From: Theionarchaea archaeon
GTDB taxonomy: Archaea; Methanobacteriota_B; Thermococci; Methanofastidiosales; SZ-28-30
Direction: 5' to 3'
Assembly: GCA_018992685.1 (NCBI GenBank)
Contig: JACVGT010000027.1
Span: forward strand, 1 to 43,932
DNA: 43,932 bases
The notes beneath the pieces are model-generated. The model made no database searches, had not been told where the DNA came from, and was given only the letters and a program-made list of their open reading frames with translations. Both the position numbers and the translations under genes were made by a program. Of the stretch, positions 29,325-43,932 are shown piece after piece (the first letter of the stretch is position 1; each line of letters starts with the position of its first letter).

Positions 29325-29792
29325 ATGTCGAACTTGGAGAATGTAACCTACTGTGGGCTGTACTGCGGACTCTGCTCTGCCCGGGGAAGGATTCCACACC
29401 AGGCTCATGCCCTTCAGAAATCCATGGAAGAAGAGGGATACCCTGTGTGGGGAAAGGAGATTCCCGACTTCGAAGCCTTTTGGAGTTTTCTGGGGAGGAT
29501 GTGCGATCCTCAGAAGGTGTGTTCCGGCTGTCGCCAGGGAGGAGGGCCTCCTTTTTGTTCTATACGCATATGCTGCTCGAAGAACGGTCTTGATGTATGT
29601 GTGTCCTGCAAGGAATATCCCTGTCACAGGATTCGTGGACTGGCTAAAGGATATCCCACATTGCTGGCAGATGGTTTGCGTATCAAGGAAATCGGAATCG
29701 AGAAATGGATTGAAGAACAGGAGACCAGGGCCAAGAAAGGGGTTGTATATGCTGATATCCTCTGCCATCCTTACGAAGTCCCCAGGGACTAG
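29325..29792 (+). CDS. Cys-rich DUF3795-like protein
   Basis: CGLYCGLC, CSGCR, CSIRICC, CVSCKEYPC pattern. Confidence 0.8.
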   Translation: MSNLENVTYCGLYCGLCSARGRIPHQAHALQKSMEEEGYPVWGKEIPDFEAFWSFLGRMCDPQKVCSGCRQGGGPPFCSIRICCSKNGLDVCVSCKEYPCHRIRGLAKGYPTLLADGLRIKEIGIEKWIEEQETRAKKGVVYADILCHPYEVPRD

Positions 29793-29878
29793 TAGCTCTT
29801 TAAGACAGAAGAGAGAACTCCAGTGCCAGAGCAGGTGTGAGGAAAGTCTTGCACCCCTGGTTCCGGTGGGATGTTGAG

Positions 29879-31201: not shown

Positions 31202-31253
31202 CCCAGCAGCGCAATCCAGGGATCTCTGCATATCTCCACCCCTACAGCACGAG

Positions 31254-32546
31254 TTAGATTTCACCTAGAAGCAGTGGTTTTTCCCCAATTCCTGCCTTGA
31301 ATGCAGCGTAGAATTCTTCCATTTCTTCTCTTTTCTTCTCTGCATGTTCCTGTCCCACGATCACTGATTTCTTGGCATCATCGAGTTCATCCAGATCGCT
31401 GGAGGGAGCGTACTGACTGTAGACGGGAGTTCCGGGATAGGGAGTCAGGACGGAAAAGAGTGCGTACGTGGGATTGATCTCTTTGATGAACGCTTTGGTT
31501 AACTCTATGTCGTGTGACGTTTCCACGGGAGCACCAACGATGAAATAAGCATGGGTTGCAACATTCATGTGGTGACACAGAGAGAAAACAGTTCTGCACT
31601 GGGCAAGCGTGAACCCCTTGTTGTACCAATCGATGATTTTCTTACTTCCCGATTCCACTCCAAACGCGATGCAGATGAGGCCTGATGACTTCATGAGTGA
31701 CAGCAGTTCGCTGTTCACTGATTCTACTCGCGCCTGGCATGCCCATTCCAGGTCGATTCTCTCTTTCTTAATTGTCCTGCAGATTTCTCTCACTCTTTTC
31801 CTGTCATGAACGAAAAGATCGTCTACAAACCAGACTCTGTCAAATCCCATTTCCTCTATGATCAGAAGCTCATCTGTCAGGTTCTTTGCAGACCGTGCTC
31901 TAAATTTCCTGCCAAATACTGTCTTTGAACAGAAGGAGCAGTGAAAGGGACATCCTCGTGAAGAGAGGACTGACGTGACTGTTTTTGGATAGGTTGATCT
32001 CCAGTGGTCCAAGTATCGAGCGATGGGTAGCTTTTCTCGTGCAGGGAAGGGCACACCGTCAACATCCGTAATGAGTGGCCGTTCTCCGGGGCACACTGTT
32101 CTCCCCTCCACATACGTGAAACTCCCTGGTACAGGGGGCATCTCTCCTGCTTCTATATGGCGAGCAATGTCAATAAAGGTCTCCTCACCCTCTCCCTGCA
32201 CCACATAGGTACATCTCTTGAGGAACAGTCCCGGATCCATGCTGCTGGGGCCCGGACCTCCAACGACAACCGGTATCCTGCGGTCTTTCATCTTTTCGGC
32301 AAGACTGAGCGCAGATTTTATCTGTCCAAAAGAAGCAGAAATACCCACCATGTCTGCATTGATGGAGGTAACCCTGGCTTCATACTGAGACTCTGTCAGA
32401 ATCGTACTGTCTATGACTTCTACTGTATGTCCCTCTCTTTCCAGCACTGCAGCCAGGTAGAGAATTCCCAGGGGTGGCCACAGCTCAGGATCTCCTCTGA
32501 AGCATCCTCCTACCCGTGAAGGTGGAAAGACCAGTAAAACTCTCAC
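31254..32546 (-). CDS. B12-binding radical SAM enzyme (C)
   Basis: N-terminal cobalamin domain (PPLGILYLAA, VVVGGP, GEGE), SRGCPFHCSFC, FVDD, GVESG, TPYPGT. GTG start after GGTGA. Confidence 0.9.
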   Translation of the reverse strand: MRVLLVFPPSRVGGCFRGDPELWPPLGILYLAAVLEREGHTVEVIDSTILTESQYEARVTSINADMVGISASFGQIKSALSLAEKMKDRRIPVVVGGPGPSSMDPGLFLKRCTYVVQGEGEETFIDIARHIEAGEMPPVPGSFTYVEGRTVCPGERPLITDVDGVPFPAREKLPIARYLDHWRSTYPKTVTSVLSSRGCPFHCSFCSKTVFGRKFRARSAKNLTDELLIIEEMGFDRVWFVDDLFVHDRKRVREICRTIKKERIDLEWACQARVESVNSELLSLMKSSGLICIAFGVESGSKKIIDWYNKGFTLAQCRTVFSLCHHMNVATHAYFIVGAPVETSHDIELTKAFIKEINPTYALFSVLTPYPGTPVYSQYAPSSDLDELDDAKKSVIVGQEHAEKKREEMEEFYAAFKAGIGEKPLLLGEI

Positions 32547-32550
32547 GCGA

Positions 32551-33879
32551 TCACCATTGGTCCTCCAGAGCAAAATCAGGATCGCTCTCTTTCTTGAAAT
32601 CAGTGAACCGGATATATGCTCTTTCAATCATGGCTTCTGCTTCTGCGCTGGAAAAATGTGGATGTTCAAACACCAGGGACATCCTGTTATCAAATGTGTC
32701 AAATCCCTCGGTCACAGTCTCGACTTCATGTGATAATCGGGTTCCTGGAATCGGAATGGGAAGTGAGAACTCCACGCTATCAGGGTCAATAGACATGGCA
32801 AATCGTATCGTATCTTCAACAGTTTCAGGTGTGTCACGGGGAAATCCCAGTATGAAATAGGCGCACCGCTTGATTCCAGCCTTCCTGGTCATTCTGAAAG
32901 CCTTTTTCACTGCCTCTAAATCGTGCCCTTTTCCGATATACCTGAGAATATCAGGGTTTCCAGATTCCACCCCGAACCCAATCCAGGTGCATCCTGCTTT
33001 CCTCATGGCTTCCAGCATGTCTCCGTCAATCGTATCAACGCGGCTCTCACAGTACCATTCCAGGTCGGGATGCTCTTTCCGGAGCTCCGCGCACAGGTCG
33101 AGAACACGCTTTCTATCCAGCGTGAACAAATCATCAGCAAACCACAATTTGTCGATTCCCCTCCCTTCCAGGTATGAAATCTCAGGCATGATATTCTCTA
33201 CTGATCGTGCCCTGTAGAGGGTGCCAAAAACGCTCTTATCACAGAAATTGCATTTATGAGGACATCCTCTTGAGGAAAGCAGTGATGTGCAGGTAAATTG
33301 GAAGTATTCTTTCCAAACAGCCATGTACTTTTCAAAAATGAAGTTATCCCTGTCCGGGAACGGGATTGAGTCAACATCTTCGATAATGGTAGGAGGGCCA
33401 TGGTGTACGCCATGTTCTTTCCAGACCAGGTTTGGGATTGCTGAATCAGCAGGCACGGTACAGTCATCGGATGCCTCCAGACATTCTGCTAGCACGGTGA
33501 TGGCTCTTTCACCTTCTCCTGCCACGAGGAAATCGACATCATCACAGGTTATCAGCTGGGGGTAGCATGATGGCAGTGGGCCACCGATAACCACGGGCAG
33601 CGACTGCTCTTTGAGCGTTCTGCAGGTTTCAAGCAAGGCGGAATAATGCAGGAGAGTAGAATACACTCCTGCCAGATCAAAGTCCCTGCCTTTACAGAAT
33701 GATTTCAAATCCTTCTGGAATGTCCCGTCGAAAACTGAAACAGAATGCCCCTGTTCAGAGAGAGCAGCAGAAATGTACAGAATTCCCAGTGGAGGGAAGG
33801 GAGCTTGCGTTGGGACAGGGTCAAACACCAGAGGTTTCCGCGGAGCATCGAGAGGAGGAACCACAAGGAGGATGTTCAT
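32551..33879 (-). CDS. B12-binding radical SAM enzyme (B)
   Basis: PPLGILYISA, IGGP, GEGE, SRGCPHKCNFC, FADD, GVESG, PIPGT. Confidence 0.9.
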   Translation of the reverse strand: MNILLVVPPLDAPRKPLVFDPVPTQAPFPPLGILYISAALSEQGHSVSVFDGTFQKDLKSFCKGRDFDLAGVYSTLLHYSALLETCRTLKEQSLPVVIGGPLPSCYPQLITCDDVDFLVAGEGERAITVLAECLEASDDCTVPADSAIPNLVWKEHGVHHGPPTIIEDVDSIPFPDRDNFIFEKYMAVWKEYFQFTCTSLLSSRGCPHKCNFCDKSVFGTLYRARSVENIMPEISYLEGRGIDKLWFADDLFTLDRKRVLDLCAELRKEHPDLEWYCESRVDTIDGDMLEAMRKAGCTWIGFGVESGNPDILRYIGKGHDLEAVKKAFRMTRKAGIKRCAYFILGFPRDTPETVEDTIRFAMSIDPDSVEFSLPIPIPGTRLSHEVETVTEGFDTFDNRMSLVFEHPHFSSAEAEAMIERAYIRFTDFKKESDPDFALEDQW

Positions 33880-33883
33880 CTCG

Positions 33884-35191
33884 TCACTTCCGGGGCCGTG
33901 AAAGACATGCAGCACAGAATTCCAGATACAGTTCGTGGAGCCTGTCCTTGGCAATGTGCTCTGTTACCATGATGGGCTTATACCCCTGGTAATCCTCCCA
34001 GTTCTTGTACATGCCCTGGTGGACGCCCACATCTCCATCTTCTATCATTTTTTCAAGTTCAGTCCCTGGAAAGGGAATAGGGAACTTGCCATACGCTATG
34101 AGGTTAAGCCCGAATTCTTTTCTCAAATGTTTGACCAGGTTAATGGACTTTTCAATGTCTCCTTCTGTTTCCCAAGGAAATCCAAGTATGAATCCCACCA
34201 ATATCTGGTCGATACCAGCTGAGAACGCTTTTTCAATAGCTTTTATACCTGCCTGGACTGTAGTCCCCTTTTTCACGTGATCCAGGTTATCCTGTGATCC
34301 TGTTTCCAGTCCATAGTATACTGCGTAGCATCCTGCTCTTTTCAATTCTCTGAGCAAGTCTGTGTCAATGGTATCCACCCGGGTTTCACAATTCCAATCA
34401 ATATCCAGGCCTTCTTCCCGTATCAGTGTGCAGATTTTCAATGCGCGTTTCCTGTTGAGCGTGAAGGTGTCATCCCCGACCAGGATCTTCTTCTCAGGAT
34501 ACAGGTCATGTACGTATCTCAGTTCCTGCACAACGTTTTCTGCAGATCTGAACCGATACTGCCTGAACATCCTGCGGGTGGAACAGAAGATACATTTGTG
34601 GGCACATCCCCTGCTGGTGTTAATTGCCACCATACCGTACTCAGGATAGTTGCCCAAAGGGAAGAGATCATGTGCAGGAAAGGGGAGCGCATCCAAATCA
34701 GAAACAAGGGGGGCATCCTCAGTCCGCACAAGAGACGTATGACGATATGTCAACCCCCTGATTGGGCGGGGATCGTGCTGCTTCTCAAGGCAGTCCAGCA
34801 GCTCAACGATGGTGTGTTCTCCCTCGTTTCTCACCACGTAGTCCACACACTCCTGTGAAGCTGCATCGAAATCTTCAAAAGTGGCATGGATACCACCCAG
34901 GATCGTCGTGACAGTAGGATCACACTGCTTACACGCAGTGAGGGCTCTCAGTGCAGGCCGATATCCCACAGTAGCCACAGAACACCCCACCACGTCAGGC
35001 TTGAATTTCTTCATGACACCTTTCACTGATTCTGGAGTCAACCCCTGAGAGGGCATGTCCAAAACGTCAATGGTATGTCCCGCCTCCCGCAGAACTGCAG
35101 CAATGTAGGCAAGTCCGATCGGGGTGGAATTTAGCCAATCAGAGTCGTGGGAAGAGTAGGGCCGTGGAGGTTGTATGAGAAGAACTCTCAT
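33884..35191 (-). CDS. B12-binding radical SAM enzyme (A)
   Basis: PIGLAYIAA, LGGIHAT, NEGE, SRGCAHKCIFC, GDD, GLETG, PFPGT. Confidence 0.9.
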   Translation of the reverse strand: MRVLLIQPPRPYSSHDSDWLNSTPIGLAYIAAVLREAGHTIDVLDMPSQGLTPESVKGVMKKFKPDVVGCSVATVGYRPALRALTACKQCDPTVTTILGGIHATFEDFDAASQECVDYVVRNEGEHTIVELLDCLEKQHDPRPIRGLTYRHTSLVRTEDAPLVSDLDALPFPAHDLFPLGNYPEYGMVAINTSRGCAHKCIFCSTRRMFRQYRFRSAENVVQELRYVHDLYPEKKILVGDDTFTLNRKRALKICTLIREEGLDIDWNCETRVDTIDTDLLRELKRAGCYAVYYGLETGSQDNLDHVKKGTTVQAGIKAIEKAFSAGIDQILVGFILGFPWETEGDIEKSINLVKHLRKEFGLNLIAYGKFPIPFPGTELEKMIEDGDVGVHQGMYKNWEDYQGYKPIMVTEHIAKDRLHELYLEFCAACLSRPRK

Positions 35192-35204
35192 TGTATCCCT
35201 GTCC

Positions 35205-35450
35205 CTACTCTTCTCCAAGCCCGATAGTTCCAACCTTTTCTACAAATTCCCTTACACTGGTAGTGGCTGCTTCCTTGTCCACATCGAAAATCTTCATCAG
35301 TTCTGCTACAATCTCCTGTTCCGGCTTTTCCAGAAGCTTCCAGACGATTGCACCACTCTTGTTAGTCTTGTAGATCTTACCATCTGCAGGATCAAACACC
35401 AAAACGTTTTCATCCTGATCTCTCCAAACGATATCTGGATTTAGTTTCAT
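35205..35450 (-). CDS. Stand-alone PqqD-family RiPP recognition element (RRE), 81 aa
   Basis: LNPDIVWR..VLVFD...GKIYKTNKSGAIVWKLL..EIVAELMKIFDVD...A..SVREFVEK: the three-strand/three-helix PqqD pattern. First gene of the B12-rSAM operon. Confidence 0.88.
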   Translation of the reverse strand: MKLNPDIVWRDQDENVLVFDPADGKIYKTNKSGAIVWKLLEKPEQEIVAELMKIFDVDKEAATTSVREFVEKVGTIGLGEE

Positions 35451-35499
35451 TTTCGTCACACTCGATAGCAAATTCAGTGGATGGATCTCGCGTAGTTAC

Positions 35500-35520
35500 A
35501 TTTATAAGAAACTTATAAAT
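35500..35520. promoter_or_regulatory. Palindromic double TATA box between the divergent pqqD-like and deacetylase operons
   Basis: ATTTATAAG-AAA-CTTATAAAT perfect inverted repeat in a ~100-bp intergenic gap. Confidence 0.65.
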
Positions 35521-35549
35521 CTTTTGTTAGTGTAGAAGGAGGAGTACCT

Positions 35550-36245
35550 GTGCGTATGATATTTATTTCAGCTCACCCGGACGATGCATTCTTAGGAGCA
35601 GGAGGTGTCATTCTCAAACACAGGGCACTGGAAGATGATATTCTCCTGATCAATGTGACGTCAGCGGAGAAAGGGTTGCCATTTGTGGAAGAGGGCTTTT
35701 TGAGAGCAGTGAGAGAGAAGGAGCAGGACATCTTATGCAGGAACCTCGGCATTGCTGTAGAATTCCTTCATGTACCAGATTTGAAAATACAATATGCGGG
35801 AGAAGAACTGGTGAACCACCTCATCCTGAAAATCCGGCAGTTCACTCCAGATCTGGTGTTCACTCACTACCCTGAAGATATTCATCCAGACCACAGATCA
35901 GTGAGTTCTGTTGTGAAAACAGCATGTCATCTCAGTACATTCCCCAAGGTGTGTCCTGATGCACCCACGCACACGATTTCCAACCTGTTCATGTGGGAAG
36001 AATACAGCACCCGGGACTTCAGACCCATGGTGTATGTTGATATAACCTCAGAATATGAGCAGAAAAAGGAGACGCTCAGAGAATACAAGACGCAATACCC
36101 CATTTTGAGGAATGTGTTTTCTCATGCTGAATTGCAGCCCAGGGTTCGCGGAATTGAGGCCGGATGTGAGTACGCAGAAGCATTTCATTGTCCATGGCCT
36201 GTGACTGCAGGCGATTTGTCTCAATTCAGAAGGAGGCGTACGTGA
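35550..36245 (+). CDS. PIG-L/LmbE-family N-acetylglucosaminyl deacetylase (BshB/MshB-like)
   Basis: SAHPDD, REKE, THYPEDIHPDH, YKTQ, AEAF; RBS GGAGGAG. Confidence 0.9.
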   Translation: MRMIFISAHPDDAFLGAGGVILKHRALEDDILLINVTSAEKGLPFVEEGFLRAVREKEQDILCRNLGIAVEFLHVPDLKIQYAGEELVNHLILKIRQFTPDLVFTHYPEDIHPDHRSVSSVVKTACHLSTFPKVCPDAPTHTISNLFMWEEYSTRDFRPMVYVDITSEYEQKKETLREYKTQYPILRNVFSHAELQPRVRGIEAGCEYAEAFHCPWPVTAGDLSQFRRRRT

Positions 36246-36247
36246 AC

Positions 36248-37534
36248 ATGATTGTGCTGATAAATCCACCTTACGTTTCAGAATGGGGCCCTCGAGTCAA
36301 CATAGGTCTTGGGTATGTGGCAGGAGTCCTGCGGGAGCATGGAATAGAGGTCAAAATCATAGACGCAACAGCAAGAAAGACGTCAGTTGATGACATCGTG
36401 GGTCGTGTTTCTTCTCTTGATCCTGATATTGTGGGAGTGTCAAGTATTGCTGCAACATACCCTGTGTCGCTGGACATTTTGAAAGCAGTGAAGAATCGTC
36501 TCTCTGTATTCACTGTTATGGGGGGATTGATGCCCACGTATCTGGACATGCAGACTGCTGGACTGGAGTATGTGGATGCGGTGGTCAGGGGAGAAGGAGA
36601 ATACACTTTTCTGGAGCTTGTAAGATCATATGCTCAAGGGACGTATACTGCCACCCAGGGCGTTACCTGCAAGAACCATGGAACTGTTGTCAGAAATCCA
36701 GATAGACCACTCATTGAGGATTTAGACACTTTGCCTTTTCCTGCCTATGATTTATTTCCCACAAAAGAGCTCATGCAGCAATCAATTCCCAAGAATGCTG
36801 CAGTCATGTCCACAAGCCGTGGATGTCCCTACAACTGTAAATTCTGTTCAATGAACACATTTTTCAGGAGAAAATGGAGGGGAAGGAGTGCCGTAAATGT
36901 CTTTGAGGAAATGAAAGTCCTGCGCTACGAATATGGGGTTGAAGAGCTGCAGATTGTGGATGAGCTCTTCACGTTTGACATGAAGCGAGCGGAACAGATT
37001 TCAGATTTTCTCATTGAAGACGAGACAGAACTACGGTGGATTTGTGAATCACGGGTAGATAGGCTTTCTGAGAACCTTCTGGAGAAGATGAAGAAAGCTG
37101 GCTGTTATGCTGTGTGCCTTGGGGTGGAGAGTGGTGTTCAGTCCATCTTGGACAGGGTGGGCAAAGGGATTGATCTCCACCAGGTAGAACATGCAGTGCA
37201 AGCGTGCAAGAGAGTAGGCATCAAAGCCATTGGTTCCTTTATCATAGGTCTTCCCTCAGAAACGGAAGGCACGGCAAGGCAGACGCTTGAGTTTATCAAA
37301 CGTCTGGACTTTGATCGAGTTATCATACACAATTTGAATCCATATCCTGGCTCTGAAATATATGAAAATCCGGAAGAATACGGAATTACTATTGTCAATA
37401 AGCAGTTCTCCACATACCATTTTTTTGCTCCTGTCTGCGAGACAGACGGGTTCTCCATAAAGCAGCAGGCACATCTATGGCTGGATATTCTCTGTGATCC
37501 GTTTTTTGTAAAGAGAGGGATTACCATTCCCTAG
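36248..37534 (+). CDS. B12-binding radical SAM enzyme (D)
   Basis: NIGLGYVAG, MGGLMPT, GEGE, SRGCPYNCKFC, GVESG, NPYPGS; ATG after GGAGG. Confidence 0.9.
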   Translation: MIVLINPPYVSEWGPRVNIGLGYVAGVLREHGIEVKIIDATARKTSVDDIVGRVSSLDPDIVGVSSIAATYPVSLDILKAVKNRLSVFTVMGGLMPTYLDMQTAGLEYVDAVVRGEGEYTFLELVRSYAQGTYTATQGVTCKNHGTVVRNPDRPLIEDLDTLPFPAYDLFPTKELMQQSIPKNAAVMSTSRGCPYNCKFCSMNTFFRRKWRGRSAVNVFEEMKVLRYEYGVEELQIVDELFTFDMKRAEQISDFLIEDETELRWICESRVDRLSENLLEKMKKAGCYAVCLGVESGVQSILDRVGKGIDLHQVEHAVQACKRVGIKAIGSFIIGLPSETEGTARQTLEFIKRLDFDRVIIHNLNPYPGSEIYENPEEYGITIVNKQFSTYHFFAPVCETDGFSIKQQAHLWLDILCDPFFVKRGITIP

Positions 37535-37542
37535 GAGATTCC

Positions 37543-38631: not shown

Positions 38632-38658
38632 CTGTGGACCTGAATGATACCATGAGAA

Positions 38659-39402
38659 TCAGGTGAATACGGGTTTGAGAGTACCAAAAGAGGTTTCCAC
38701 CTCCTCAGGAGTGGTGACCCCGATGACGCAGGAGTCTATCAGGTGTTTATGCTCTCGAAGAAATGGGACCACCCTATCCAGAGTCAGCCATCCCCCTGCC
38801 ATCACCTTCTTGGCAATGACAGGCACGTCCACTGCTGCAAGCGCCTTCAAGGTAGCCTCTAGAGATGGCTTCATCATAAATCCCAGGGGATTGAACCCAC
38901 ACAGGCAGAAGTCCACTCCCGCTGCCTGCAGGGGTTGTGCGGTTTCACCTGGAAAATGGGTGGCAGCGCCTGCGGGTGTGCCCGCGTCCTGGAGCACCTT
39001 CAGAACCTCAGTCATCACATGGAGATTCCCTGACCGAATGAGAGCGTCAGAAATAATCCCGTGCAGGCACACTCTCACATGGGAGAGCTGGTGCAGCACT
39101 GTGAGTTCTTGCTGGATTGCACTGAGGATTTCTGTTGCACTGACGCTTTTCATGAACTCTCCGGTGGGCCTGATGTCAGCTCCTATCACACCGGTGACTA
39201 TGAAGTCATAACACGAGAACAGAGCTCCTAAATCAGGGGTGGTCTGGAGAACCGCCCCACAAACGCCGACAGAATCACACGCATCTAGAATTGCTCTCTT
39301 TTCTGCATCAGAAAGGATAACTTTCTTTTGCGACACGTAGCTATATCCGATAAAGGGATTCGTACCTACGTTGAAGGTGGGTATATGCAGATCAGGACTC
39401 AT
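38659..39402 (-). CDS. Degenerate aldo/keto-reductase-like TIM-barrel protein (paralog 1)
   Basis: GTNPFIGYSY, GAATH, NPLGFMM, VIAKKVMAGG, IGVTTPEEV; clear paralog of 42108-42863; start overlaps the end of the 25-aa peptide gene. Confidence 0.65.
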   Translation of the reverse strand: MSPDLHIPTFNVGTNPFIGYSYVSQKKVILSDAEKRAILDACDSVGVCGAVLQTTPDLGALFSCYDFIVTGVIGADIRPTGEFMKSVSATEILSAIQQELTVLHQLSHVRVCLHGIISDALIRSGNLHVMTEVLKVLQDAGTPAGAATHFPGETAQPLQAAGVDFCLCGFNPLGFMMKPSLEATLKALAAVDVPVIAKKVMAGGWLTLDRVVPFLREHKHLIDSCVIGVTTPEEVETSFGTLKPVFT

Positions 39403-39469
39403 ACGACACCATCAACACTTCGATCTCCCGGATATCCGGCTTTTCAAAAGGTTGTTTTTCGTCGCTCAT
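39392..39469 (-). CDS. Putative RRE-dependent precursor peptide, 25 aa: MSDEKQPFEKPDIREIEVLMVSYES
   Basis: RBS GAGGTGA at 39475-39481; TTTATAAA at 39510-39517; FxxPxI motif; overlaps the start of the next gene by 11 nt. Confidence 0.75.
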   Translation of the reverse strand: MSDEKQPFEKPDIREIEVLMVSYES

Positions 39470-39538
39470 GTATTTCACCTCTGCATGTGGCGCCCCCTTA
39501 TCCTGCAGGTTTATAAATCTTATGTTGGGAGTTGTCAT

Positions 39539-40480
39539 ATGATTGCGCGATCCAGAGTTTTGGTCACAGGAGGCGCTGGCTTCCTTGGTTCTCACTTAAG
39601 TACTCGCCTGGTTGAGGAAGGGGCGGAAGTAACTGTCCTGGACAATCTCAGTGCAGGAAATCTCCAGCGTCTTCAGAATGTGGCATCATGCGAGAACTTC
39701 CATTTTTTCAAAGGAGATATCAGGAATACAGAAGATGTCAAGCAATCTGTGAAAGATAAAGACATCATACTCCACTTTGCTGCGAAAGTAGGTGTGATAA
39801 GGGCAGCTTCTCAAGGAATTGACGTCCTGGATACAACACTGAAAGGGATTTCCCTTCTTCTTGCCGAAAGCACAAAATGTGACGTCAAGACATTCGTATA
39901 TGCCTCATCCTCGGAGGTGTACGGAGAACCTTCGCGTCTTCCCTCCCGTGAAGATGATCCCCTGATTCCCAGATCGACGTACGCTGTGGCAAAAGTGGCA
40001 GCCGAACGGTATTGCGAAGAGTACGGAACGCTCTACGGGATTGATACCTGTATATTTCGCTATTTCAACGTCTATGGACCACGTCAGAATGATAATTTTG
40101 TCATCCCTCAGTTTCTTCACCATGCGCTCAGGGGCGAAGCTCTTCCAGTATATGGCTCTGGGGCACAGACCAGGGATTTCTGCTACATTGACGATGCTGT
40201 TTCTCTGACTCTTGAAGGTATGAAATGGAATAAAGGATTCAATATCTTTAACGTGGGATCAGGTGAACCTATTTCTTTGAAAAGGCTGGCCGAACTTGTT
40301 TCCTCACTTTCAGCGAAGGAGTGCAGCATTGCCTTTGTGGATTTGGATACGAGAAGGCCTCAGGAATATGAGATTATACACAGACAGGCAGATATCTCAA
40401 AAATCGTTTCACTGTGTGGAGTCTCACCGAAACACAGTCTGGAAGATGGGTTACGAACGTGTCTTGAAGCTCTGATGTAG
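39539..40480 (+). CDS. NAD-dependent NDP-sugar epimerase/dehydratase (extended SDR)
   Basis: VTGGAGFLG, HFAA, ASSSEVYG, YAVAK (YxxxK), RYFNVYGP, QTRDF. Confidence 0.92.
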   Translation: MIARSRVLVTGGAGFLGSHLSTRLVEEGAEVTVLDNLSAGNLQRLQNVASCENFHFFKGDIRNTEDVKQSVKDKDIILHFAAKVGVIRAASQGIDVLDTTLKGISLLLAESTKCDVKTFVYASSSEVYGEPSRLPSREDDPLIPRSTYAVAKVAAERYCEEYGTLYGIDTCIFRYFNVYGPRQNDNFVIPQFLHHALRGEALPVYGSGAQTRDFCYIDDAVSLTLEGMKWNKGFNIFNVGSGEPISLKRLAELVSSLSAKECSIAFVDLDTRRPQEYEIIHRQADISKIVSLCGVSPKHSLEDGLRTCLEALM

Positions 40481-41266
40481 CTTCTGGCTGAATCCAGATA
40501 CTGTATCGAATCTCATAGTGTCCGGGAAGTTCTCCAACAGGGTGTGTACAGCACAGAGTGCGGACGGGGTGAGTTCCCAGGAGTGGCACAAGAACACCAC
40601 TGGCAGCAGAGGGACGGTGCGGAACTTTAGAATGAGCAGATCAAAGAGCCCCCTCAGAAGGGGATTGCCTTTTCGAATCAGGTTTTCCAGAGAAAATACA
40701 TCATATTCCAGTGAAGGAATAGTAGAAAGGGACGTGGAAACACATACCTCAGTGATCTCTCCTCTAACCACCAACCCCTTCGAGTGGCTGGCAGGAACAC
40801 TGGAACTCACAGAGTATCCATGCTGGATCAATGCTGGTATGAAGGTGTCATCAAATGCCAGATAGGGTGCCCTGAAACACAGAGGATTCTTCACAGCGCG
40901 AAGGGCTGCAGTGGCTGCGGTCAGGGCTTTTTCTGCGTTGAATCGAGATATCTGTCGATTATCATATGCAGTGGGTACCAGAGGCTCGTGATCGTCCATA
41001 TGGCACCCCATCTCGTGCTTCCTGGTCACCTCTCTCAGGAAATCAGGGAATTTCCTGGCCACATCTCCTGTACAGAATAGTGTAGCAACAATGTCATGAT
41101 CATCACAGAAATCAAGGGCCCCAGACAGCAGTGTCATGCCGTGATACGTCTTTCCTTGTGGGGAATGGTCTCTCTCTACATCAATGGTGAACATGAAGGA
41201 CAGCTCCTTTCCTTCAAGCAGGTTCTTTTCTCTCTTGTGAAGCACATTCCTCCGTGGTGCGTGCAC
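40451..41266 (-). CDS. Polysaccharide deacetylase (CE4/NodB-like); start uncertain
   Basis: FTIDVE, ATLF, HEMGCHMDDH, FRAP, HSWEL motifs. Confidence 0.82.
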   Translation of the reverse strand: MHAPRRNVLHKREKNLLEGKELSFMFTIDVERDHSPQGKTYHGMTLLSGALDFCDDHDIVATLFCTGDVARKFPDFLREVTRKHEMGCHMDDHEPLVPTAYDNRQISRFNAEKALTAATAALRAVKNPLCFRAPYLAFDDTFIPALIQHGYSVSSSVPASHSKGLVVRGEITEVCVSTSLSTIPSLEYDVFSLENLIRKGNPLLRGLFDLLILKFRTVPLLPVVFLCHSWELTPSALCAVHTLLENFPDTMRFDTVSGFSQKLHQSFKTRS

Positions 41267-41341
41267 ATAAAAAATTGAGGGTCAACTCTCTGGGGCTGCA
41301 TGAGGAGTGACGCATGATGAGTGATTAATGAAAAGATTTAA

Positions 41342-42103
41342 ATGATTCTCTTGTGCGTTGTGCATGTGAAGACAGCAGCCGTGAGTTCAGTGTATAAGAG
41401 CCGGGACCTGACAGCAGCATGCGATGCTATACTTGACATCGGATATGACTGTGTAGAGGTGATGGCATATCCTCCTCATGTTGACCTTTCACAGACATCA
41501 AGGGTCCAGGAGGTACTCTCCCCATACGAGGGACACATTTCTGGATTCGGTATCTACGAAAACCTGTGTGACCTCAGGGAGAATTACCGGATCAAAGCAG
41601 TGGAAGAGACCATTACCTGCATTGAACTGTGCAACAGAACAGGGGGAGAATTTGTCGTGTGTCAGACCGGCATCGCTCCGTCCTTTTTGAGAAATGAAGC
41701 GAGCAGCGCATTTGAAAAGTCTCTGGACCGGATTCTCCCTGCAGCTCATGACTTCCAGGTCTGCCTCGCACTTGAGAATGCTCCCTCCACATTGCTGGCG
41801 ACGGTTGAGGAAACGAGTTCCTTCCTTGATCACCACACTGACCCAGCTATCTGCCTGACTGTGGATCCAGTGAACTTTTTTGCTGCCCAGTGCAGTCCCT
41901 CCGACGCTGAGAGACTGGTTCGAAGAACAGTGAATCTGCACCTCAAGAATGTGGCATCGGGACGCGAAGCACCTGTTTCTCAGGGCGAGGTGGATTTTCA
42001 CAGGGTACTCTCTTTTCCATGGACCTCCGTTTTCACAGCAGAATATGAGGAAACAGCAATGACAGAGGAATTTCTTCGCGATGCACGTCTATTTCTTGGG
42101 TGA
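41342..42103 (+). CDS. Sugar-phosphate isomerase/epimerase (xylose-isomerase-like/AP-endonuclease-2 TIM barrel)
   Basis: GYDCVE, LALEN, VDPVN, LHLKN, GEVDF, AEYE metal-ligand pattern. Confidence 0.82.
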   Translation: MILLCVVHVKTAAVSSVYKSRDLTAACDAILDIGYDCVEVMAYPPHVDLSQTSRVQEVLSPYEGHISGFGIYENLCDLRENYRIKAVEETITCIELCNRTGGEFVVCQTGIAPSFLRNEASSAFEKSLDRILPAAHDFQVCLALENAPSTLLATVEETSSFLDHHTDPAICLTVDPVNFFAAQCSPSDAERLVRRTVNLHLKNVASGREAPVSQGEVDFHRVLSFPWTSVFTAEYEETAMTEEFLRDARLFLG

Positions 42104-42107
42104 TAGT

Positions 42108-42863
42108 ATGAAAATATCTACACGATGCCTGAACGGCACTGAGTATTCCCGAATCATTTTGGGTTGTAACCCCTTTATTGGCTGGTCATACAGGGGAAAA
42201 GCACTTGCTCAGCACTACAAGGAGAAATTTTCAAGCCCCGAACCCGTACGGGAGATTATAGTCCACGCGTACCAGTACGGGATAAATGCCATTATGACGA
42301 CAGCAGATGAACACGTACTCCAGGCTGTCGCTTCAGCCCAGAAAGAGGTGGGCGAGATTAGTGTCCTTGGAATGCTGGGGTATTCTATTGAAGGGTATCG
42401 GAATTTCAAAGAAGACATTAGAAAATTCAGCAGCATATCAGCGTCTGCAGCTGTGATTGTGGCTGAGATTACTGACCCTCTCATCCAGAAGACACCCATG
42501 TTGTTTGATGCCTATAAAGATGAGGTTTCCAAGGAATTCGATACAGTGGGGGCTGCTACCCACAACCCTGCTCTCACCTTCCCCTACCTTGAGACCACAG
42601 AGCTCGATTTTCTCGTGGCAGCTGTAAACCCTGCAGGGTTCATGATGGGAAAGAAGGAGGAATCACTGCAGCTGATAAAAGCATCTCAGAAACCTGTTGT
42701 AGCCAAGAAAACTCTGGCAGGCGGCACTGTGGACCCCCTGACAGGGATTGAATTTGCTTTTTGTGAGATGGCGGTGGATTTTGCGGCGGTAGGTGTTGCA
42801 TCACCCGAGGAAGTGGATCAGGACGTAGAGGCCTATCTCAAGGTATCCACCAGGGATACATAG
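42108..42863 (+). CDS. Degenerate aldo/keto-reductase-like TIM-barrel protein (paralog 2)
   Basis: SRIILGCNPFIGWSY, AYQYGINA, GAATH, NPAGFMM, VVAKKTLAGG, VGVASPEEV. Confidence 0.65.
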   Translation: MKISTRCLNGTEYSRIILGCNPFIGWSYRGKALAQHYKEKFSSPEPVREIIVHAYQYGINAIMTTADEHVLQAVASAQKEVGEISVLGMLGYSIEGYRNFKEDIRKFSSISASAAVIVAEITDPLIQKTPMLFDAYKDEVSKEFDTVGAATHNPALTFPYLETTELDFLVAAVNPAGFMMGKKEESLQLIKASQKPVVAKKTLAGGTVDPLTGIEFAFCEMAVDFAAVGVASPEEVDQDVEAYLKVSTRDT

Positions 42864-43927
42864 GTCTTGACAGTCCGTTCCAGCGAGTAGAGTCGGTTGA
42901 TGGTACGAGTGCCTTCAGATGCAATTTGGTTCGCTTTATGAGGATCAGACAGGAGGAGGTCAATTCCTTCTGCGATACTCTCAGGATTTTGAGGCTCTAC
43001 GAGTATCCCATTGGTGCCGGATTTGATGTACTCTCCAATGGAAGGAATATTCGATCCCACCACTGGTTTTCCACAGGCCATAGCTTCCATGAGAGCCAGC
43101 CCCAGTGATTCATATGATGAGGTCAGAACGACAACGTCAGCGCCCCGGTAGATAGAGGGCATCTCTTCCCACAAGTGCCCATTGCCAAATATCACCCTGT
43201 GGGAGATGTTGAGCGAGGCAGCTTTCTTAACATACTTCTTCAACAGTGTCTGGGACAGACCCTGCCAGGATTCTCCTCCGCCTGTAATGTAGAGGACGAC
43301 ATCATGGGACAGCAAAGCGATTGCCTCAAGGAGGGAGTCTATCTCTTTGTGTGGGTCAATCCGGGCAGGCAGTAGGATAATCTTTTTTTCCGGGCAAGCA
43401 AGGGTTTCTCGTAGGGTGCTCCCCCCTTCAGGTGTGAACAGATCTGTGTCAACTCCGGTTGATATGACTTCAATTCTTTCGGTAACGCCCCGATCTTCGA
43501 GTTCCTTCTTGGCGTGATGTGTGGGGCAGATAATGACGTCAAAGGCGCCACTTGTGAGAACCAGAGAAGCTACCTCAACGGGATGAAGGTCAAAGTGCCG
43601 CAGTATGGTAACAGGTGCTCGTACCTGAAGTGCAGCCAGTGACCAGACATTCGGGTTCTCGAACTGAAGGATGTCACAGAGTTCTACACTCTTTTTCAGT
43701 TCTTTAATGAACAGGGGCAGCACACTGGAATGATACAGAGGAAACGAGTCTCGCCTCTCTACTCGAATGCCTTGAGTCTCATAATGGGTGGGAATTCCCA
43801 GTTCTGTTCTGCTGAGGACCGAAACAGACCATCCTCTGGCCACCAGTTCCTTTCCCAATGCATATACAGCAATATCCACTCCACCCACATTGGGCAAAAA
43901 AGTAGGATGTATGAACCATAAATCCAT
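42833..43927 (-). CDS. Glycosyltransferase family 4 (GT-B)
   Basis: NVGGVD, TGVDTDLF, ARIDPHK, ESLGLALMEAMACGKPVV, NGILV; start is 5 nt from the window edge. Confidence 0.9.
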   Translation of the reverse strand: MDLWFIHPTFLPNVGGVDIAVYALGKELVARGWSVSVLSRTELGIPTHYETQGIRVERRDSFPLYHSSVLPLFIKELKKSVELCDILQFENPNVWSLAALQVRAPVTILRHFDLHPVEVASLVLTSGAFDVIICPTHHAKKELEDRGVTERIEVISTGVDTDLFTPEGGSTLRETLACPEKKIILLPARIDPHKEIDSLLEAIALLSHDVVLYITGGGESWQGLSQTLLKKYVKKAASLNISHRVIFGNGHLWEEMPSIYRGADVVVLTSSYESLGLALMEAMACGKPVVGSNIPSIGEYIKSGTNGILVEPQNPESIAEGIDLLLSDPHKANQIASEGTRTINRLYSLERTVKTYVSLVDTLR

Positions 43928-43932
43928 GGATT

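What the first reader, a model, noticed from the sequence alone, without database searches (positions are those of the whole stretch)
31254..43927. Candidate novel archaeal glyco-RiPP or peptide-derived cofactor cluster: RRE + tiny peptide + four B12 radical SAM enzymes + sugar-tailoring enzymes
Seen: a stand-alone PqqD/RRE heads an operon of three B12-binding radical SAM genes. The divergent operon has a PIG-L deacetylase, a fourth B12-rSAM and a GT4. Then come a 25-aa peptide coupled to an AKR-like gene, an NDP-sugar epimerase, a CE4 deacetylase, a sugar isomerase, a second AKR-like gene and a second GT4. Known: RREs deliver ribosomal peptides to modifying enzymes; B12-rSAMs methylate or rearrange unactivated carbons; PQQ and glycosylated mycofactocin are cofactors cut from very short peptides. 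Inference: a small core (VSYES region) is modified several times and glycosylated to give a cofactor-like or antibiotic-like molecule. I do not recognise this combination as a described pathway. No peptidase is visible, and the cluster may extend beyond 43932. The convergent MFS at 29879-31201 is a possible exporter.
Basis: partly seen in the sequence, partly recalled or inferred. Interest (0 to 1): 0.92.

Follow-up and report, generated by a model that had tools for sequence, protein, structure and literature searches.

The report
Archaeal peptide-plus-sugar radical SAM gene cluster
A sediment archaeon carries a compact, lineage-restricted gene cluster in which a peptide-binding chaperone, a very conserved 25-residue peptide gene, four vitamin-B12-type radical enzymes and a set of sugar enzymes sit together, most likely making an unknown modified, possibly sugar-decorated, peptide product.

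Summary
It also confirms an SDR sugar enzyme, a CE4 deacetylase, a xylose-isomerase-like TIM barrel and a second GT4. The two "AKR-like" genes have no Pfam hit; a model of the first is a TIM barrel closest to a short AKR.

The 25-aa ORF looks like a real gene. It has a GAGGTGA Shine-Dalgarno, a TATA box and a stop overlapping the next gene. It is the most conserved stretch of the cluster against a congeneric Theionarchaea MAG: 24 of 25 residues, 94.9% nt against 79% overall. PqqD is second. Its nearest solved relative is the lasso RRE TbiB1, and the peptide carries FxxPxI, resembling the lasso leader's YxxPxL. A predicted RRE-peptide complex gave only weak support.

The cluster is confined to this lineage. 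In the relative it continues with more rSAMs, one of them SPASM-type.

Verdict: a probable new RRE-dependent peptide pathway with sugar tailoring. The product and the peptide-sugar link are inferred, not shown. No published description was found.

The parts
29837..31201 (+). MFS transporter, candidate exporter, convergent with the rSAM operon
   Evidence: Pfam MFS_1 106.7 bits. The G001 orthologue is 89.5% identical and syntenic. The best matches in cluster-less G002 and G003 are only 65% and 60%. G000 has a 60% paralogue on C31.
31254..32627 (-). B12-binding radical SAM enzyme rSAM_C (maximal ORF; the true start may lie downstream)
   Evidence: Pfam B12-binding 70.9 and Radical_SAM 53.5 bits. 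CPFHCSFC motif. Best NCBIfam HpnJ 159.7 bits (cut-off 577.6) and ApyD 154.9 (cut-off 750). 75% identical to G001.
32551..33954 (-). B12-binding radical SAM enzyme rSAM_B
   Evidence: Pfam Radical_SAM 106.9 and B12-binding 50.9 bits. CPHKCNFC motif. Best NCBIfam HpnJ 152.9 bits, below cut-off. 82% identical to G001. Sister of rSAM_C in a quick tree, SH-aLRT 94, both on long branches.
33884..35233 (-). B12-binding radical SAM enzyme rSAM_A, immediately downstream of PqqD
   Evidence: Pfam Radical_SAM 102.9 and B12-binding 74 bits. CAHKCIFC motif. Best NCBIfam BchE 195 bits (cut-off 481) and ApyD 186.9 (cut-off 750). Only four database orthologues at 76-86% identity; every other listed hit is at most 41%.
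35205..35471 (-). Stand-alone PqqD-family RRE (probable start ATG 35450, 81 aa)
   Evidence: Pfam PqqD 48.5 bits (cut-off 23.4). A profile against PDB gives TbiB1 (5v1u) as best, E 1e-4 over the full length. 94% identical to G001. Residues 8-37 are nearly invariant in 8 homologues.
35451..35549 (.). Divergent promoter region between the PqqD and PIG-L operons, with inverted TATA-like boxes and a shared 16-mer at 35513-35528
   Evidence: Sequence read. TTATAAATCTTWTGTT occurs only twice in the 3.03-Mb genome, here and at 39511. 88.9% nt identity to G001.
35550..36245 (+). PIG-L family de-N-acetylase
   Evidence: Pfam PIG-L 93.5 bits. Best NCBIfam BshB1 99.5 bits (cut-off 182.5). AHPDD and HPDH motifs are present.
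36188..37534 (+). B12-binding radical SAM enzyme rSAM_D inside the sugar operon
   Evidence: Pfam Radical_SAM 79.9 and B12-binding 77.3 bits. CPYNCKFC motif. Nearest solved chain AprD4 (6fd2), E 6.7e-28. NCBIfam BchE 195.1 and HpnJ 190.5 bits, both below cut-off.
37543..38631 (+). GT4 glycosyltransferase GT4a
   Evidence: Pfam Glycos_transf_1 114.9 bits. Best NCBIfam BshA 109.7 bits (cut-off 273.7).
38659..39402 (-). 247-aa TIM-barrel protein of an uncharacterised archaeal family (AKR-like fold), translationally coupled to the peptide gene
   Evidence: No Pfam or NCBIfam hit. AF2 model pLDDT 72.9. Foldseek best AKR14A1, E 8e-7, TM about 0.6. VIA best PA4992, Z 15.3, against generic TIM barrels at 12-13.7. 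Nine family members found.
39392..39469 (-). pep25, a 25-codon ORF (MSDEKQPFEKPDIREIEVLMVSYES); candidate precursor peptide
   Evidence: ORF and overlap read. 24 of 25 residues identical in G001. Four nt differences: three synonymous third positions and one S2N. 94.9% nt identity against 79% overall, and the best 78-nt window of the whole alignment starts at 39365.
39470..39538 (.). Divergent promoter and 5' region: SD GAGGTGA (39475-39481, minus strand) 5 nt before the pep25 ATG; TATA TTTATAAA 39510-39517; shared 16-mer 39511-39526
   Evidence: Sequence read. The SD and start are identical in G001 while the sequence upstream diverges. Uniqueness of the 16-mer.
39539..40480 (+). Extended-SDR NDP-sugar epimerase/dehydratase
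   Evidence: Pfam Epimerase 199.9 bits. NCBIfam LegB 170.1 and dTDP-glucose 4,6-dehydratase 170.2 bits, both below cut-off.
40451..41266 (-). CE4-type polysaccharide deacetylase homologue
   Evidence: Pfam Polysacc_deac_1 35.5 bits (cut-off 23.1).
41342..42103 (+). Xylose-isomerase-like TIM-barrel protein (sugar isomerase/epimerase type)
   Evidence: Pfam AP_endonuc_2 74.2 bits. Weak NCBIfam IolO 28.5 bits.
42081..42863 (+). 260-aa paralogue of the 247-aa TIM-barrel protein
   Evidence: No Pfam or NCBIfam hit. About 28% identical to the 247-aa protein. 81% identical to G001.
42833..43927 (-). GT4 glycosyltransferase GT4b; the contig ends 5 nt beyond its start codon
   Evidence: Pfam Glycos_transf_1 134.8 bits. 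Best NCBIfam MshA 107.3 bits (cut-off 462.5). The contig is 43932 nt long.

Best explanation
This is a lineage-restricted biosynthetic gene cluster of a Theionarchaea-type archaeon. It most likely makes a ribosomally encoded, post-translationally modified peptide product.

Proposed course (all steps inferred; only the gene content and the conservation pattern are shown):
1. The 25-residue peptide pep25 is translated from its own Shine-Dalgarno site at the head of a two-gene operon.
2. Its N-terminal part (F8-x-x-P11-x-I13) is bound as a leader by the stand-alone PqqD-type RRE.
3. The RRE presents the C-terminal part (around LMVSYES) to the three B12-radical SAM enzymes encoded directly behind it. 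These methylate or otherwise alter unactivated carbons.
4. The sugar set comprises GT4a, PIG-L, rSAM_D, the SDR, CE4, the TIM isomerase, two AKR-like TIM barrels and GT4b. It builds and trims one or two amino-sugar units. These are attached to the peptide or to a fragment of it.
5. The MFS transporter exports the product.
For: 1. Gene content: Pfam confirms the RRE, four B12-rSAMs, PIG-L, two GT4s, the SDR, CE4, the TIM isomerase and the MFS. Spacers are small or genes overlap.

2. pep25 looks like a gene.
- It has the SD GAGGTGA 5 nt before its ATG and a TATA box 40 nt upstream. Its stop overlaps the next start.
- 24 of 25 residues are kept in G001, and 3 of the 4 nt changes are synonymous. 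The open frame just upstream of the ATG diverges at 4 of 13 residues.
- It is the most conserved 78-nt window of the 14-kb alignment: 94.9-97.4% against 79% overall.
- Only 26 of 25,212 small ORFs (0.10%) in the genome combine an SD with an [YFW]xxPx[LIVM] motif.

3. PqqD is the second conservation peak: 94% aa, against 72-86% for the 13 enzyme and TIM-barrel proteins and 89.5% for the MFS. Its nearest solved relative is the lasso leader-binding RRE TbiB1 (E 1e-4, full length). Lasso leaders carry YxxPxL (PMC10368454, passages read), and pep25 carries FxxPxI.

4. Predicted PqqD + peptide complex, verdict 'weak support'.
- Score 0.60 (runs 0.60, 0.66, 0.01); best of 3 controls 0.20.
- The mark was reached by 58 of 80 solved complexes and 2 of 110 mismatched pairs. 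At 0.60 or under it was reached by only 7 of those 80 and by both mismatches that passed.
- The runs agree in at least 8% of contacts; partner pLDDT is at least 37.
- RRE-leader complexes are solved, so the pass may be from memory.

5. Co-inheritance.
- The whole set is syntenic in G001.
- An orthologue of PqqD was found only in G001 among the 41 relatives searched, and an orthologue of the 247-aa gene only in G001 among the 133 genomes of the class.
- In three Theionarchaea records the accessions of PqqD and the 247-aa gene are 4 apart, which matches the gene order here.
- More divergent homologues of PqqD (70-80%), rSAM_A (76-78%) and the 247-aa gene (54-55%) lie on contigs of identical lengths: 23185, 17710, 8412, 12735 and 2992 nt.

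6. A 16-mer at both divergent promoters occurs nowhere else in the genome.

7. Precedent: ApyD, an RRE-containing B12-rSAM, beta-methylates the penultimate Tyr of a RiPP precursor (PMC10635010, passages read). ApyD is among the top three NCBIfam hits of all four rSAMs.

8. A second PqqD locus in the same genome (C17) combines PqqD with SPASM rSAMs, a B12-rSAM and a transglutaminase-like protein. So an RRE next to a B12-rSAM recurs in this genome in a context that looks like a RiPP cluster.
Against: - No expression or product data exist.
- Peptide conservation rests on one comparison of two congeneric genomes. The four nt differences are few. Part of the nt conservation may come from the overlapping start and SD of the next gene.
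- The complex prediction is weak. One of three runs scored 0.01. It was run on a 48-residue reading of the frame, not on the 25-mer.
- No leader peptidase was found among the ORFs I scanned in the window or in the G001 extension.
- If the FxxPxI motif were spaced as in lasso leaders, almost no core would remain. The leader/core split is therefore unclear.
- The peptide gene lies 4 kb from the RRE, inside the sugar part. It is coupled to a TIM-barrel gene, not to an rSAM.
- GT4 + PIG-L pairs, an SDR and a TIM isomerase (plus a GFO/IDH/MocA oxidoreductase in G001) are typical of non-ribosomal sugar, cyclitol or thiol pathways. The nearest solved relative of the rSAMs is the aminoglycoside enzyme AprD4.
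- The rSAMs belong to no named family. In a quick tree they do not form one clade: at least 4 origins are forced by starred branches.
Confidence: 0.5

Rival explanations
1. The cluster makes a non-ribosomal amino-sugar or pseudo-oligosaccharide small molecule or glycolipid head group. GT4a would add GlcNAc to a small acceptor, PIG-L would deacetylate it, and the B12-rSAMs would methylate or dehydrate sugar carbons, as in aminoglycoside pathways. On this reading pep25 is a regulatory upstream ORF for the TIM-barrel gene, and PqqD is an accessory protein without a peptide substrate in the cluster.
For: - The best NCBIfam hits of GT4a and PIG-L are BshA and BshB1; GT4b's is MshA.
- The G001 extension has an IolG/UDP-GlcNAc-3-dehydrogenase-like GFO protein, a methyltransferase and a GT28-like GT.
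- The nearest solved chain for rSAM_A and rSAM_D is AprD4, E 9e-23 and 7e-28.
- An MFS suits small-molecule export.
- No peptidase was found.
Against: - All those hits are far below family cut-offs.
- No aminotransferase, cyclitol synthase or nucleotidyltransferase was found among the ORFs scanned.
- As far as I recall, every characterised PqqD-family protein binds a peptide.
- PqqD and pep25 are the two most conserved elements of the cluster. That is hard to explain for an accessory protein and an upstream ORF.
- pep25 carries a leader-like FxxPxI motif.
Confidence: 0.25
2. Two unrelated neighbours. One is a small RiPP unit: PqqD plus three B12-rSAMs, with pep25 or an unseen peptide as substrate. 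The other is a separate surface-glycan or glycolipid unit: PIG-L, rSAM_D, the GTs, SDR, CE4 and the TIM barrels. They merely travel together.
For: - The rSAM operon and the sugar genes are separate transcription units on both strands.
- G000 has another PIG-L + GT4 pair on C12, so such pairs exist outside RiPP contexts.
- An O-antigen-polymerase-like gene lies 6 kb upstream.
Against: - The peptide gene sits in the sugar part while the RRE sits in the rSAM part.
Orthologues of the genes searched (PqqD, the 247-aa gene, the MFS) were not found in G002 or G003.
- The two divergent promoters share a 16-mer found nowhere else in the genome.
- No flippase or oligosaccharyltransferase was found among the scanned ORFs.
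Confidence: 0.15
3. pep25 is not translated. The conserved 78 nt would be a promoter-proximal RNA or DNA regulatory element for the 247-aa gene, and the RRE's peptide would be encoded elsewhere in the genome.
For: - Nt identity (94.9%) is high even at synonymous sites.
- The strand folds somewhat better than shuffles: z -1.85, with 8 of 200 shuffles as good.
- The 3' end overlaps the next gene's start.
Against: - No Rfam family matches.
- A strong SD sits at the right distance, conserved together with the ATG, while the sequence upstream diverges.
- 3 of the 4 changes are synonymous.
- No other small-ORF space exists in the tightly packed cluster.
Confidence: 0.1

Closest known systems
Aminopyruvatide (apy) pathway: RRE-dependent B12-radical SAM ApyD (PMC10635010, passages read)
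   Same: - A B12-rSAM works with an RRE on a ribosomal peptide.
- It modifies a Tyr next to the C-terminus. ApyA ends GYLYD; pep25 ends VSYES.
- ApyD is among the top three NCBIfam hits of all four rSAMs here.
   Different: - Scores are 123-187 bits against a cut-off of 750, so these are not ApyD family members.
- The RRE is fused in ApyD and discrete here.
- No MNIO, P450 or ApyS-type partner is present.
- apy is bacterial and has no sugar genes.
Mycofactocin pathway (PMC7491314 and PMC9679996, abstracts seen in the search listing)
   Same: A short precursor peptide, a PqqD-type chaperone (recalled), a radical SAM maturase, glycosylation of the peptide-derived core, and a SAM methyltransferase. 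G001 has a SPASM rSAM and a methyltransferase in the extension.
   Different: - The MftC model scores 71.2 bits against a cut-off of 265 for the G001 SPASM enzyme.
- The rSAMs in the window are B12-type, not SPASM.
- The GTs are GT4, not the MftF type (recalled to be GT2).
- pep25 lacks the C-terminal Val-Tyr of MftA (recalled).
- No MftD or MftE homologue was seen.
Lasso peptide B1 RRE (TbiB1, PDB 5v1u) with its YxxPxL leader
   Same: TbiB1 is the nearest solved relative of this PqqD. pep25 has FxxPxI, a conservative variant of YxxPxL.
   Different: No B2 transglutaminase peptidase and no Asn-synthetase-like cyclase was found among the cluster ORFs scanned with Pfam. With lasso spacing, only one core residue would remain.
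PQQ biosynthesis (PqqA/PqqD/PqqE)
   Same: A PqqD-family protein and a peptide of similar size containing Glu and Tyr.
   Different: - The PqqE model scores 61.5 bits against a cut-off of 381 for the only SPASM enzyme, which is in G001.
- No PqqB or PqqC was seen.
- The E-x3-Y spacing of PqqA (recalled) is absent from pep25.
Bacillithiol/mycothiol first steps (BshA/BshB, MshA/MshB) and aminoglycoside pathways (AprD4)
   Same: A GT4 + PIG-L deacetylase pair. The nearest solved rSAM is AprD4.
   Different: - All scores are well below cut-offs: BshA 109.7 against 273.7; BshB1 99.5 against 182.5; AprD4 100-127 against 500.
- No Cys ligase or aminotransferase was seen.
- An RRE and a conserved peptide gene are present here.
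Multi-B12-rSAM RiPPs (polytheonamide PoyB/C, bottromycin methyltransferases); recalled, not tested here
   Same: Several class B rSAMs act in one peptide cluster.
   Different: - These are bacterial and have no discrete PqqD of this kind and no amino-sugar tailoring set.
- The generic RiPP C-methyltransferase model TIGR03975 scores 82-131 bits against a cut-off of 281.85.

Membership tests
RRE-dependent RiPP gene cluster | A PqqD-like RiPP recognition element | tested here: met
   Pfam PqqD 48.5 bits (cut-off 23.4). TbiB1 E 1e-4 over the full length. The AF2 model has low confidence (pLDDT 56.9), but its secondary-structure order, two strands then three helices, is compatible.
RRE-dependent RiPP gene cluster | A short precursor peptide gene in the cluster | tested here: met
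   The 25-codon ORF has an SD and a TATA box. 24 of 25 residues are kept in G001, and it is the conservation peak of the cluster. Translation itself is not shown.
RRE-dependent RiPP gene cluster | The RRE binds the peptide's leader | tested here: inconclusive
   Complex prediction gave weak support: 0.60 against a best control of 0.20, with one of three runs at 0.01.
RRE-dependent RiPP gene cluster | A leader peptidase | tested here: not met
   No peptidase family was found among the 15 window ORFs from 29229 to 43927 or the 13 ORFs scanned in G001:C49:5-15774. It could be encoded elsewhere.
Class B (B12-binding) radical SAM enzymes | An N-terminal B12-binding domain, a radical SAM core and a CX3CX2C motif | tested here: met
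   All four window enzymes have them. Cobalamin binding itself cannot be tested here.
Named B12-rSAM families (BchE, HpnJ, ApyD, AprD4, MCR Gln C-methyltransferase, ladderane-lipid rSAM, RiPP C-methyltransferase TIGR03975) | A score at or above the NCBIfam curated cut-off | tested here: not met
   The best scores are 152.9-195.1 bits, against cut-offs of 481-578 for those best-scoring models. The seven named families have cut-offs of 282-750, and none is reached.
Lasso peptide cluster | A B2 transglutaminase-type peptidase and an Asn-synthetase-like cyclase | tested here: not met
   Neither domain was found in any scanned cluster ORF. A transglutaminase-like gene does occur at the separate C17 PqqD locus.
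PQQ or mycofactocin pathway | A PqqE or MftC SPASM maturase at family level | tested here: not met
   The window has none. The G001 SPASM rSAM scores PqqE 61.5 against 381 and MftC 71.2 against 265.
Bacillithiol biosynthesis | BshA and BshB at equivalog level | tested here: not met
   109.7 against 273.7 bits and 99.5 against 182.5 bits. BshC was not searched for.
Aldo-keto reductase superfamily (247-aa and 260-aa proteins) | A sequence match to Aldo_ket_red and the catalytic tetrad | tested here: inconclusive
   No Pfam hit. The fold is closest to the short AKR PA4992, Z 15.3, rmsd 2.8, 204 residues aligned, but generic TIM barrels reach 12-13.7. The nine-member alignment has no invariant Tyr; that the tetrad includes a Tyr is recalled. 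The nearest named Atlas cluster is AKR at 0.79, a lead only.

The most novel reading that the evidence does not exclude
pep25 is a scaffold peptide. Its last few residues (around S-Y-E-S) are rebuilt by several B12-radical SAM enzymes, joined to one or two tailored amino sugars, and released as a small glycosylated cofactor-like or antibiotic-like molecule. That would be an archaeal counterpart of mycofactocin or PQQ logic with different chemistry. As far as my searches found, it would also be the first described RRE-dependent B12-rSAM peptide pathway in Archaea.
Probability: 0.2. Interest if true: 0.85.

Novelty: new variant of a known kind. Interest (0 to 1): 0.68.

Why it matters
From recall, few ribosomal peptide natural products have been characterised in Archaea. 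I found no description of an archaeal pathway that couples an RRE with B12-radical SAM enzymes.

If this reading is right, the cluster gives a small, testable system: a 25-residue peptide, an 81-residue chaperone and three to four enzymes. It could reveal new radical chemistry on peptides in an uncultured sediment lineage. It may also be a rare case of amino-sugar decoration of such a product.

It also shows how a peptide gene too short for gene callers can be recognised. The accession spacing between PqqD and the 247-aa gene in three public records leaves no number for a peptide gene if it would be numbered between them. That is consistent with it not being annotated there.

Tried and rejected
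I used no earlier findings.
- Continuation in G000: tblastn of the 11 G001 extension proteins against the G000 assembly found no orthologue. G000 is 91% complete. Whether the G000 cluster has the extension is unknown.
- Wider orthologues. The genome-contig scan with rSAM_A returned only the G001 record. The metagenome-contig scan with the 247-aa family alignment returned two distant (35%) loci on contigs crowded with long overlapping ORFs, which I did not pursue. The phylum search covered the same 133 genomes as the class search and added nothing.
I therefore could not read the divergent contigs that hold the PqqD, rSAM_A and 247-aa homologues. Co-location there is inferred only from equal contig lengths.
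- Sequencing runs: no RNA holder listed.
- Read laying on four DNA runs showed near-identical pieces in three runs and a 12,028-nt contig with 59 differences over 426 nt in the fourth. Its table of differences was cut before the pep25 codons, so it added nothing on the peptide.
- PqqD structure: the AF2 model was poor (pLDDT 56.9). Foldseek gave no match at E <= 0.001. TbiB1, PqqD and TfuB1 ranked 1, 2 and 7 at E 0.1-2.
- Protein Atlas: the window's own 247-aa protein could not be searched. The homologue P0004 found only unnamed archaeal clusters, with an AKR cluster at 0.79.
- Rfam: no family at gathering score in the whole window.
- RNA fold of the pep25 region: z -1.85, not decisive.
- A third paralogue of the 247-aa gene (G000:C15) has no pep25-like ORF upstream.
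- The three intergenic regions checked in the G001 extension hold no convincing second peptide.
- The ORF 29229-29915(-) has no Pfam hit and an implausible sequence. I treat it as not a gene.
- Tree of 70 B12-rSAMs. The rows were 11 from the cluster, 10 G000 paralogues and 49 database hits (P0026-P0074 of the 120 listed). Only the quick tree finished, with SH-aLRT support, many long branches and no characterised references. It says only that the cluster's rSAMs are old and not one clade.
- No phylogeny against GrsA/B, GenK, PoyC, TsrM and the like was possible, because no tool supplied those sequences.
- Literature. These searches found no description of this cluster:
  - 'Theionarchaea' + 'radical SAM': 2 papers, listing only.
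  - 'PqqD' + 'B12-dependent radical SAM' + 'archaea': 3 papers, listing only.
  - Archaea/RiPP/RRE/radical SAM/genome mining: 26 papers, 20 listed.
  - 'Theionarchaea' + 'biosynthetic gene cluster': 0.
  - 'DVU_1553'/'DVU_1556': 0.
  - PqqD/cobalamin/glycosyltransferase/deacetylase/precursor peptide: 7 papers, 6 listed.
- PMC12710340 was searched for B12, cobalamin and archaea terms; none occurred in its main text.
- Supplements were not consulted.

Full report
WHAT IS THERE

The window is one whole 43,932-nt contig (C18) of a 3.03-Mb, 45-contig, 91%-complete archaeal MAG. A congeneric genome, G001, is a record titled 'MAG: Theionarchaea archaeon'. The class holds 133 species genomes in the collection.

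- MFS transporter, 29837-31201(+).
- Three B12-binding radical SAM genes, 31254-35233(-), behind a stand-alone PqqD gene, 35205-35471(-).
- A divergent operon of PIG-L, a fourth B12-rSAM and a GT4, 35550-38631(+).
- A convergent two-gene unit on the minus strand: a 25-codon ORF (39392-39469) whose stop overlaps the start of a 247-aa gene (38659-39402) by 11 nt.
- An extended-SDR sugar enzyme, most likely starting at ATG 39539.
- A CE4 homologue, a xylose-isomerase-like TIM barrel, a 260-aa paralogue of the 247-aa gene, and a second GT4 whose start codon lies 5 nt from the contig end.

All four rSAMs have one CX3CX2C motif, and PIG-L has its AHPDD and HPDH motifs. The 247-aa and 260-aa proteins have no Pfam or NCBIfam hit. 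An AF2 model of the 247-aa protein (pLDDT 72.9) is a TIM barrel. It is closest to short aldo-keto reductases: Foldseek E 8e-7 with TM about 0.6, and VIA Z 15.3 for PA4992 against 12-13.7 for generic TIM barrels. 'AKR-like' therefore holds at fold level only.

IS THE 25-CODON ORF A GENE?

Signals on the minus strand:
- The ATG at 39469 is preceded by GAGGTGA with a 5-nt spacer.
- A TTTATAAA box at 39510-39517 lies 40 nt upstream.
- The same near-palindromic box lies 21 nt before the SDR gene's ATG on the other strand.

Comparison with G001:
- The peptide is identical at 24 of 25 residues. The other 14 proteins are 72-94% identical.
- Of four nt differences, three are synonymous third-position changes and one gives S2N.
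- The SD and the ATG are identical. The open frame just upstream changes at 4 of 13 residues, so conservation begins at the ribosome-binding site.

Position in the cluster-wide alignment. I aligned 29800-43932 with the G001 region, overall identity 79.0%.
- The ORF is 94.9% identical.
- The single best 78-nt window of the whole alignment starts at 39365 (97.4%).
- PqqD (88.6% nt) and the two divergent promoter regions come next. The enzyme genes are 74-83%.

Genome background. Of 25,212 ATG-ORFs of 20-40 aa in six frames, 3.75% have an SD-like 5-mer and 3.1% carry [YFW]xxPx[LIVM]. Only 26 (0.10%) have both.

The cluster is tightly packed, and this is its only spare coding space. No Rfam family matches. 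The RNA folds only slightly better than shuffles (z -1.85).

I conclude that pep25 is probably a real small gene. The evidence is one two-genome comparison plus sequence signals.

THE RRE AND ITS LIKELY LIGAND

The PqqD protein is 94% identical between the two genomes. Its N-terminal half is nearly invariant in the eight homologues found. A profile of these finds the lasso-peptide RRE TbiB1 (5v1u) as the best solved relative, E 1e-4 over the full length. My AF2 model was poor (pLDDT 56.9). Foldseek gave nothing significant, although TbiB1, PqqD and TfuB1 ranked 1, 2 and 7.

Lasso leaders carry YxxPxL at -17 to -12 (PMC10368454, passages). pep25 carries F8-E-K-P11-D-I13.

A predicted complex of PqqD (alignment of 8) with the 48-residue reading of the frame that ends in pep25 returned 'weak support'.
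- Score 0.60 (runs 0.60, 0.66, 0.01); best of three controls 0.20.
- The mark was reached by 58 of 80 solved complexes and 2 of 110 mismatched pairs. At 0.60 or under it was reached by only 7 of those 80 and by both mismatches that passed.
- The runs agree in at least 8% of contacts; partner pLDDT is at least 37.
- No interface was given. RRE-leader complexes are solved, so the pass may be from memory.

This makes an RRE-peptide pair the most economical reading, but it is not shown.

THE ENZYMES

None of the four rSAMs reaches the cut-off of any NCBIfam family. Their best hits are BchE, HpnJ and ApyD at 153-195 bits, against cut-offs of 481-750. Lipid (ladderane), MCR-glutamine and generic RiPP C-methyltransferase models score lower still. 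The nearest solved chain is AprD4, followed by an unnamed rSAM, OxsB and TokK.

rSAM_A has only four database orthologues (76-86%). Identity then drops to 41% or less, among generic archaeal and bacterial B12-rSAMs.

A quick tree of 70 sequences puts each cluster enzyme on a long branch. B and C are sisters, and G001's E and F are sisters, but the set is not one clade (the careful search did not finish, and no characterised references were included).

GT4a and PIG-L resemble BshA and BshB1, and GT4b resembles MshA, all far below cut-off.

EXTENT AND DISTRIBUTION

In G001 the whole set from the MFS to GT4b is syntenic. It continues beyond GT4b with:
- a GFO/IDH/MocA oxidoreductase
- a SAM methyltransferase
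- a GT28-like GT
- two more B12-rSAMs
- a 376-aa rSAM with a SPASM-like Cys-rich C-terminus, whose best hits (NirJ2, AhbD, WgkB, MftC) are all below cut-off
- a further B12-rSAM-like enzyme in which Pfam sees only the radical SAM core
- a PaaK/ANL-like ligase.

A second, divergent Nop5-fibrillarin pair follows. Composition is uniform along that contig. None of these extension genes was found in the G000 assembly. The G000 contig breaks exactly where the extension would begin.

Orthologues are confined to this lineage:
- For PqqD, an orthologue was found only in G001 among the 41 relatives searched.
- For the 247-aa gene, an orthologue was found only in G001 among the 133 genomes of the class.
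- G002 (84% complete) and G003 (91% complete) have only weak paralogues, or none, and lack a close MFS orthologue.
- The large protein collection holds 8 PqqD and 9 homologues of the 247-aa protein (these are word-limited searches).
- In three Theionarchaea records their accessions are four apart, matching the gene order here.
- More divergent homologues sit on contigs of the same lengths. PqqD is always the better conserved: 70-80% against 54-55%.

The two divergent promoter regions share a 16-mer found nowhere else in the genome. Its 11-nt core occurs 23 times, so the extra match is only modestly unlikely by chance; I estimate about 0.04.

Laid contigs show near-identical sequence in three DNA runs and a roughly 14%-diverged relative in a fourth. 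The runs come from sediment, estuary, mangrove and unspecified metagenomes of four studies.

HOW IT MOST LIKELY WORKS

Inferred: pep25 is made and its FxxPxI region is held by the RRE. The three B12-rSAMs encoded directly behind the RRE then alter the C-terminal part. In G001 the SPASM enzyme may do so too; it has too short an N-terminus to carry its own RRE.

ApyD is a precedent. It is an RRE-containing B12-rSAM that beta-methylates the penultimate Tyr of ApyA (PMC10635010, passages).

The sugar genes would make and attach a HexNAc-derived unit, which PIG-L and/or CE4 would deacetylate. rSAM_D, the SDR, the TIM isomerase and the AKR-like proteins would alter it further. The MFS would export the product. 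Nothing here shows that sugar and peptide are joined.

RIVALS

- A non-ribosomal amino-sugar or glycolipid pathway with an orphan RRE and a regulatory upstream ORF (0.25).
- Two unrelated neighbouring units (0.15).
- An untranslated conserved element (0.10).

Against the first two stand three points. The RRE and the peptide are the two most conserved elements. They lie in different halves of the cluster. The halves travel together.

COMPARISON AND NOVELTY

The cluster works most like RRE-dependent rSAM RiPP pathways. The closest are aminopyruvatide's ApyD step and, for the peptide-plus-sugar logic, mycofactocin. It is a member of none of these families, nor of the lasso, PQQ, bacillithiol or aminoglycoside families, because defining enzymes are missing or score far below family cut-offs (see the membership table).

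My six literature searches found no description of it. I rate it a new variant of a known kind, confined so far to Theionarchaea-type MAGs.

Confidence that it is a peptide pathway built on pep25 is 0.5. The probability that it yields a glycosylated peptide-derived small molecule is about 0.2.

Noticed in passing
G000:C17:9000-18500 (locus L011 4382-13414): A second PqqD locus looks like a lasso-like or 'HPr-rel-A' peptide cluster. It holds PqqD, two SPASM rSAMs, a transglutaminase-like protein, a B12-rSAM, a P-loop (HPr-kinase-like by eye) protein and an NTP_transf_5 nucleotidyltransferase. I did not identify a precursor peptide.
   Followed up: partly
G000:C7:55400-60700 (locus L012 8682-13696): A third PqqD homologue (28% identity) lies next to a SPASM rSAM and two other radical SAM genes.
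   Followed up: partly
G000:C10:30900-37300: Another group of three B12-rSAM genes lies with an MFS gene between them. In the quick tree they are the nearest relatives of G001's rSAM_E and rSAM_F. G000 has 14 B12-rSAM-like loci in all.
   Followed up: no
G000:C12:35949-37648: A second adjacent PIG-L + GT4 pair lies outside the cluster, 27% and 30% identical to the cluster's copies. It may be the housekeeping version of that two-step module.
   Followed up: no
G001:C49:4342-5999 (locus L009): G001 carries a second, divergent Nop5-fibrillarin pair right next to the cluster extension. It is only 43-46% identical to the fibrillarins of G000 and G003 and to G001's own other copy on C76. Composition gives no sign of a chimeric contig.
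   Followed up: partly
window 1995-7643 (-): A 1882-aa ORF, the largest in the window. I did not examine it.
   Followed up: no
window 23667-25076 (-) and 21639-23318 (-): An O-antigen-polymerase-like membrane protein (PF01901, 155.5 bits) and a family-5 solute-binding protein lie upstream. An RNase J-like gene and an FMN reductase gene separate them from the cluster.
   Followed up: no
window 29229-29915 (-): The 228-aa ORF overlapping the MFS start has no family hit and an implausible sequence. It is probably not a gene, although 56% identity to G001 is seen over 176 residues.
   Followed up: partly
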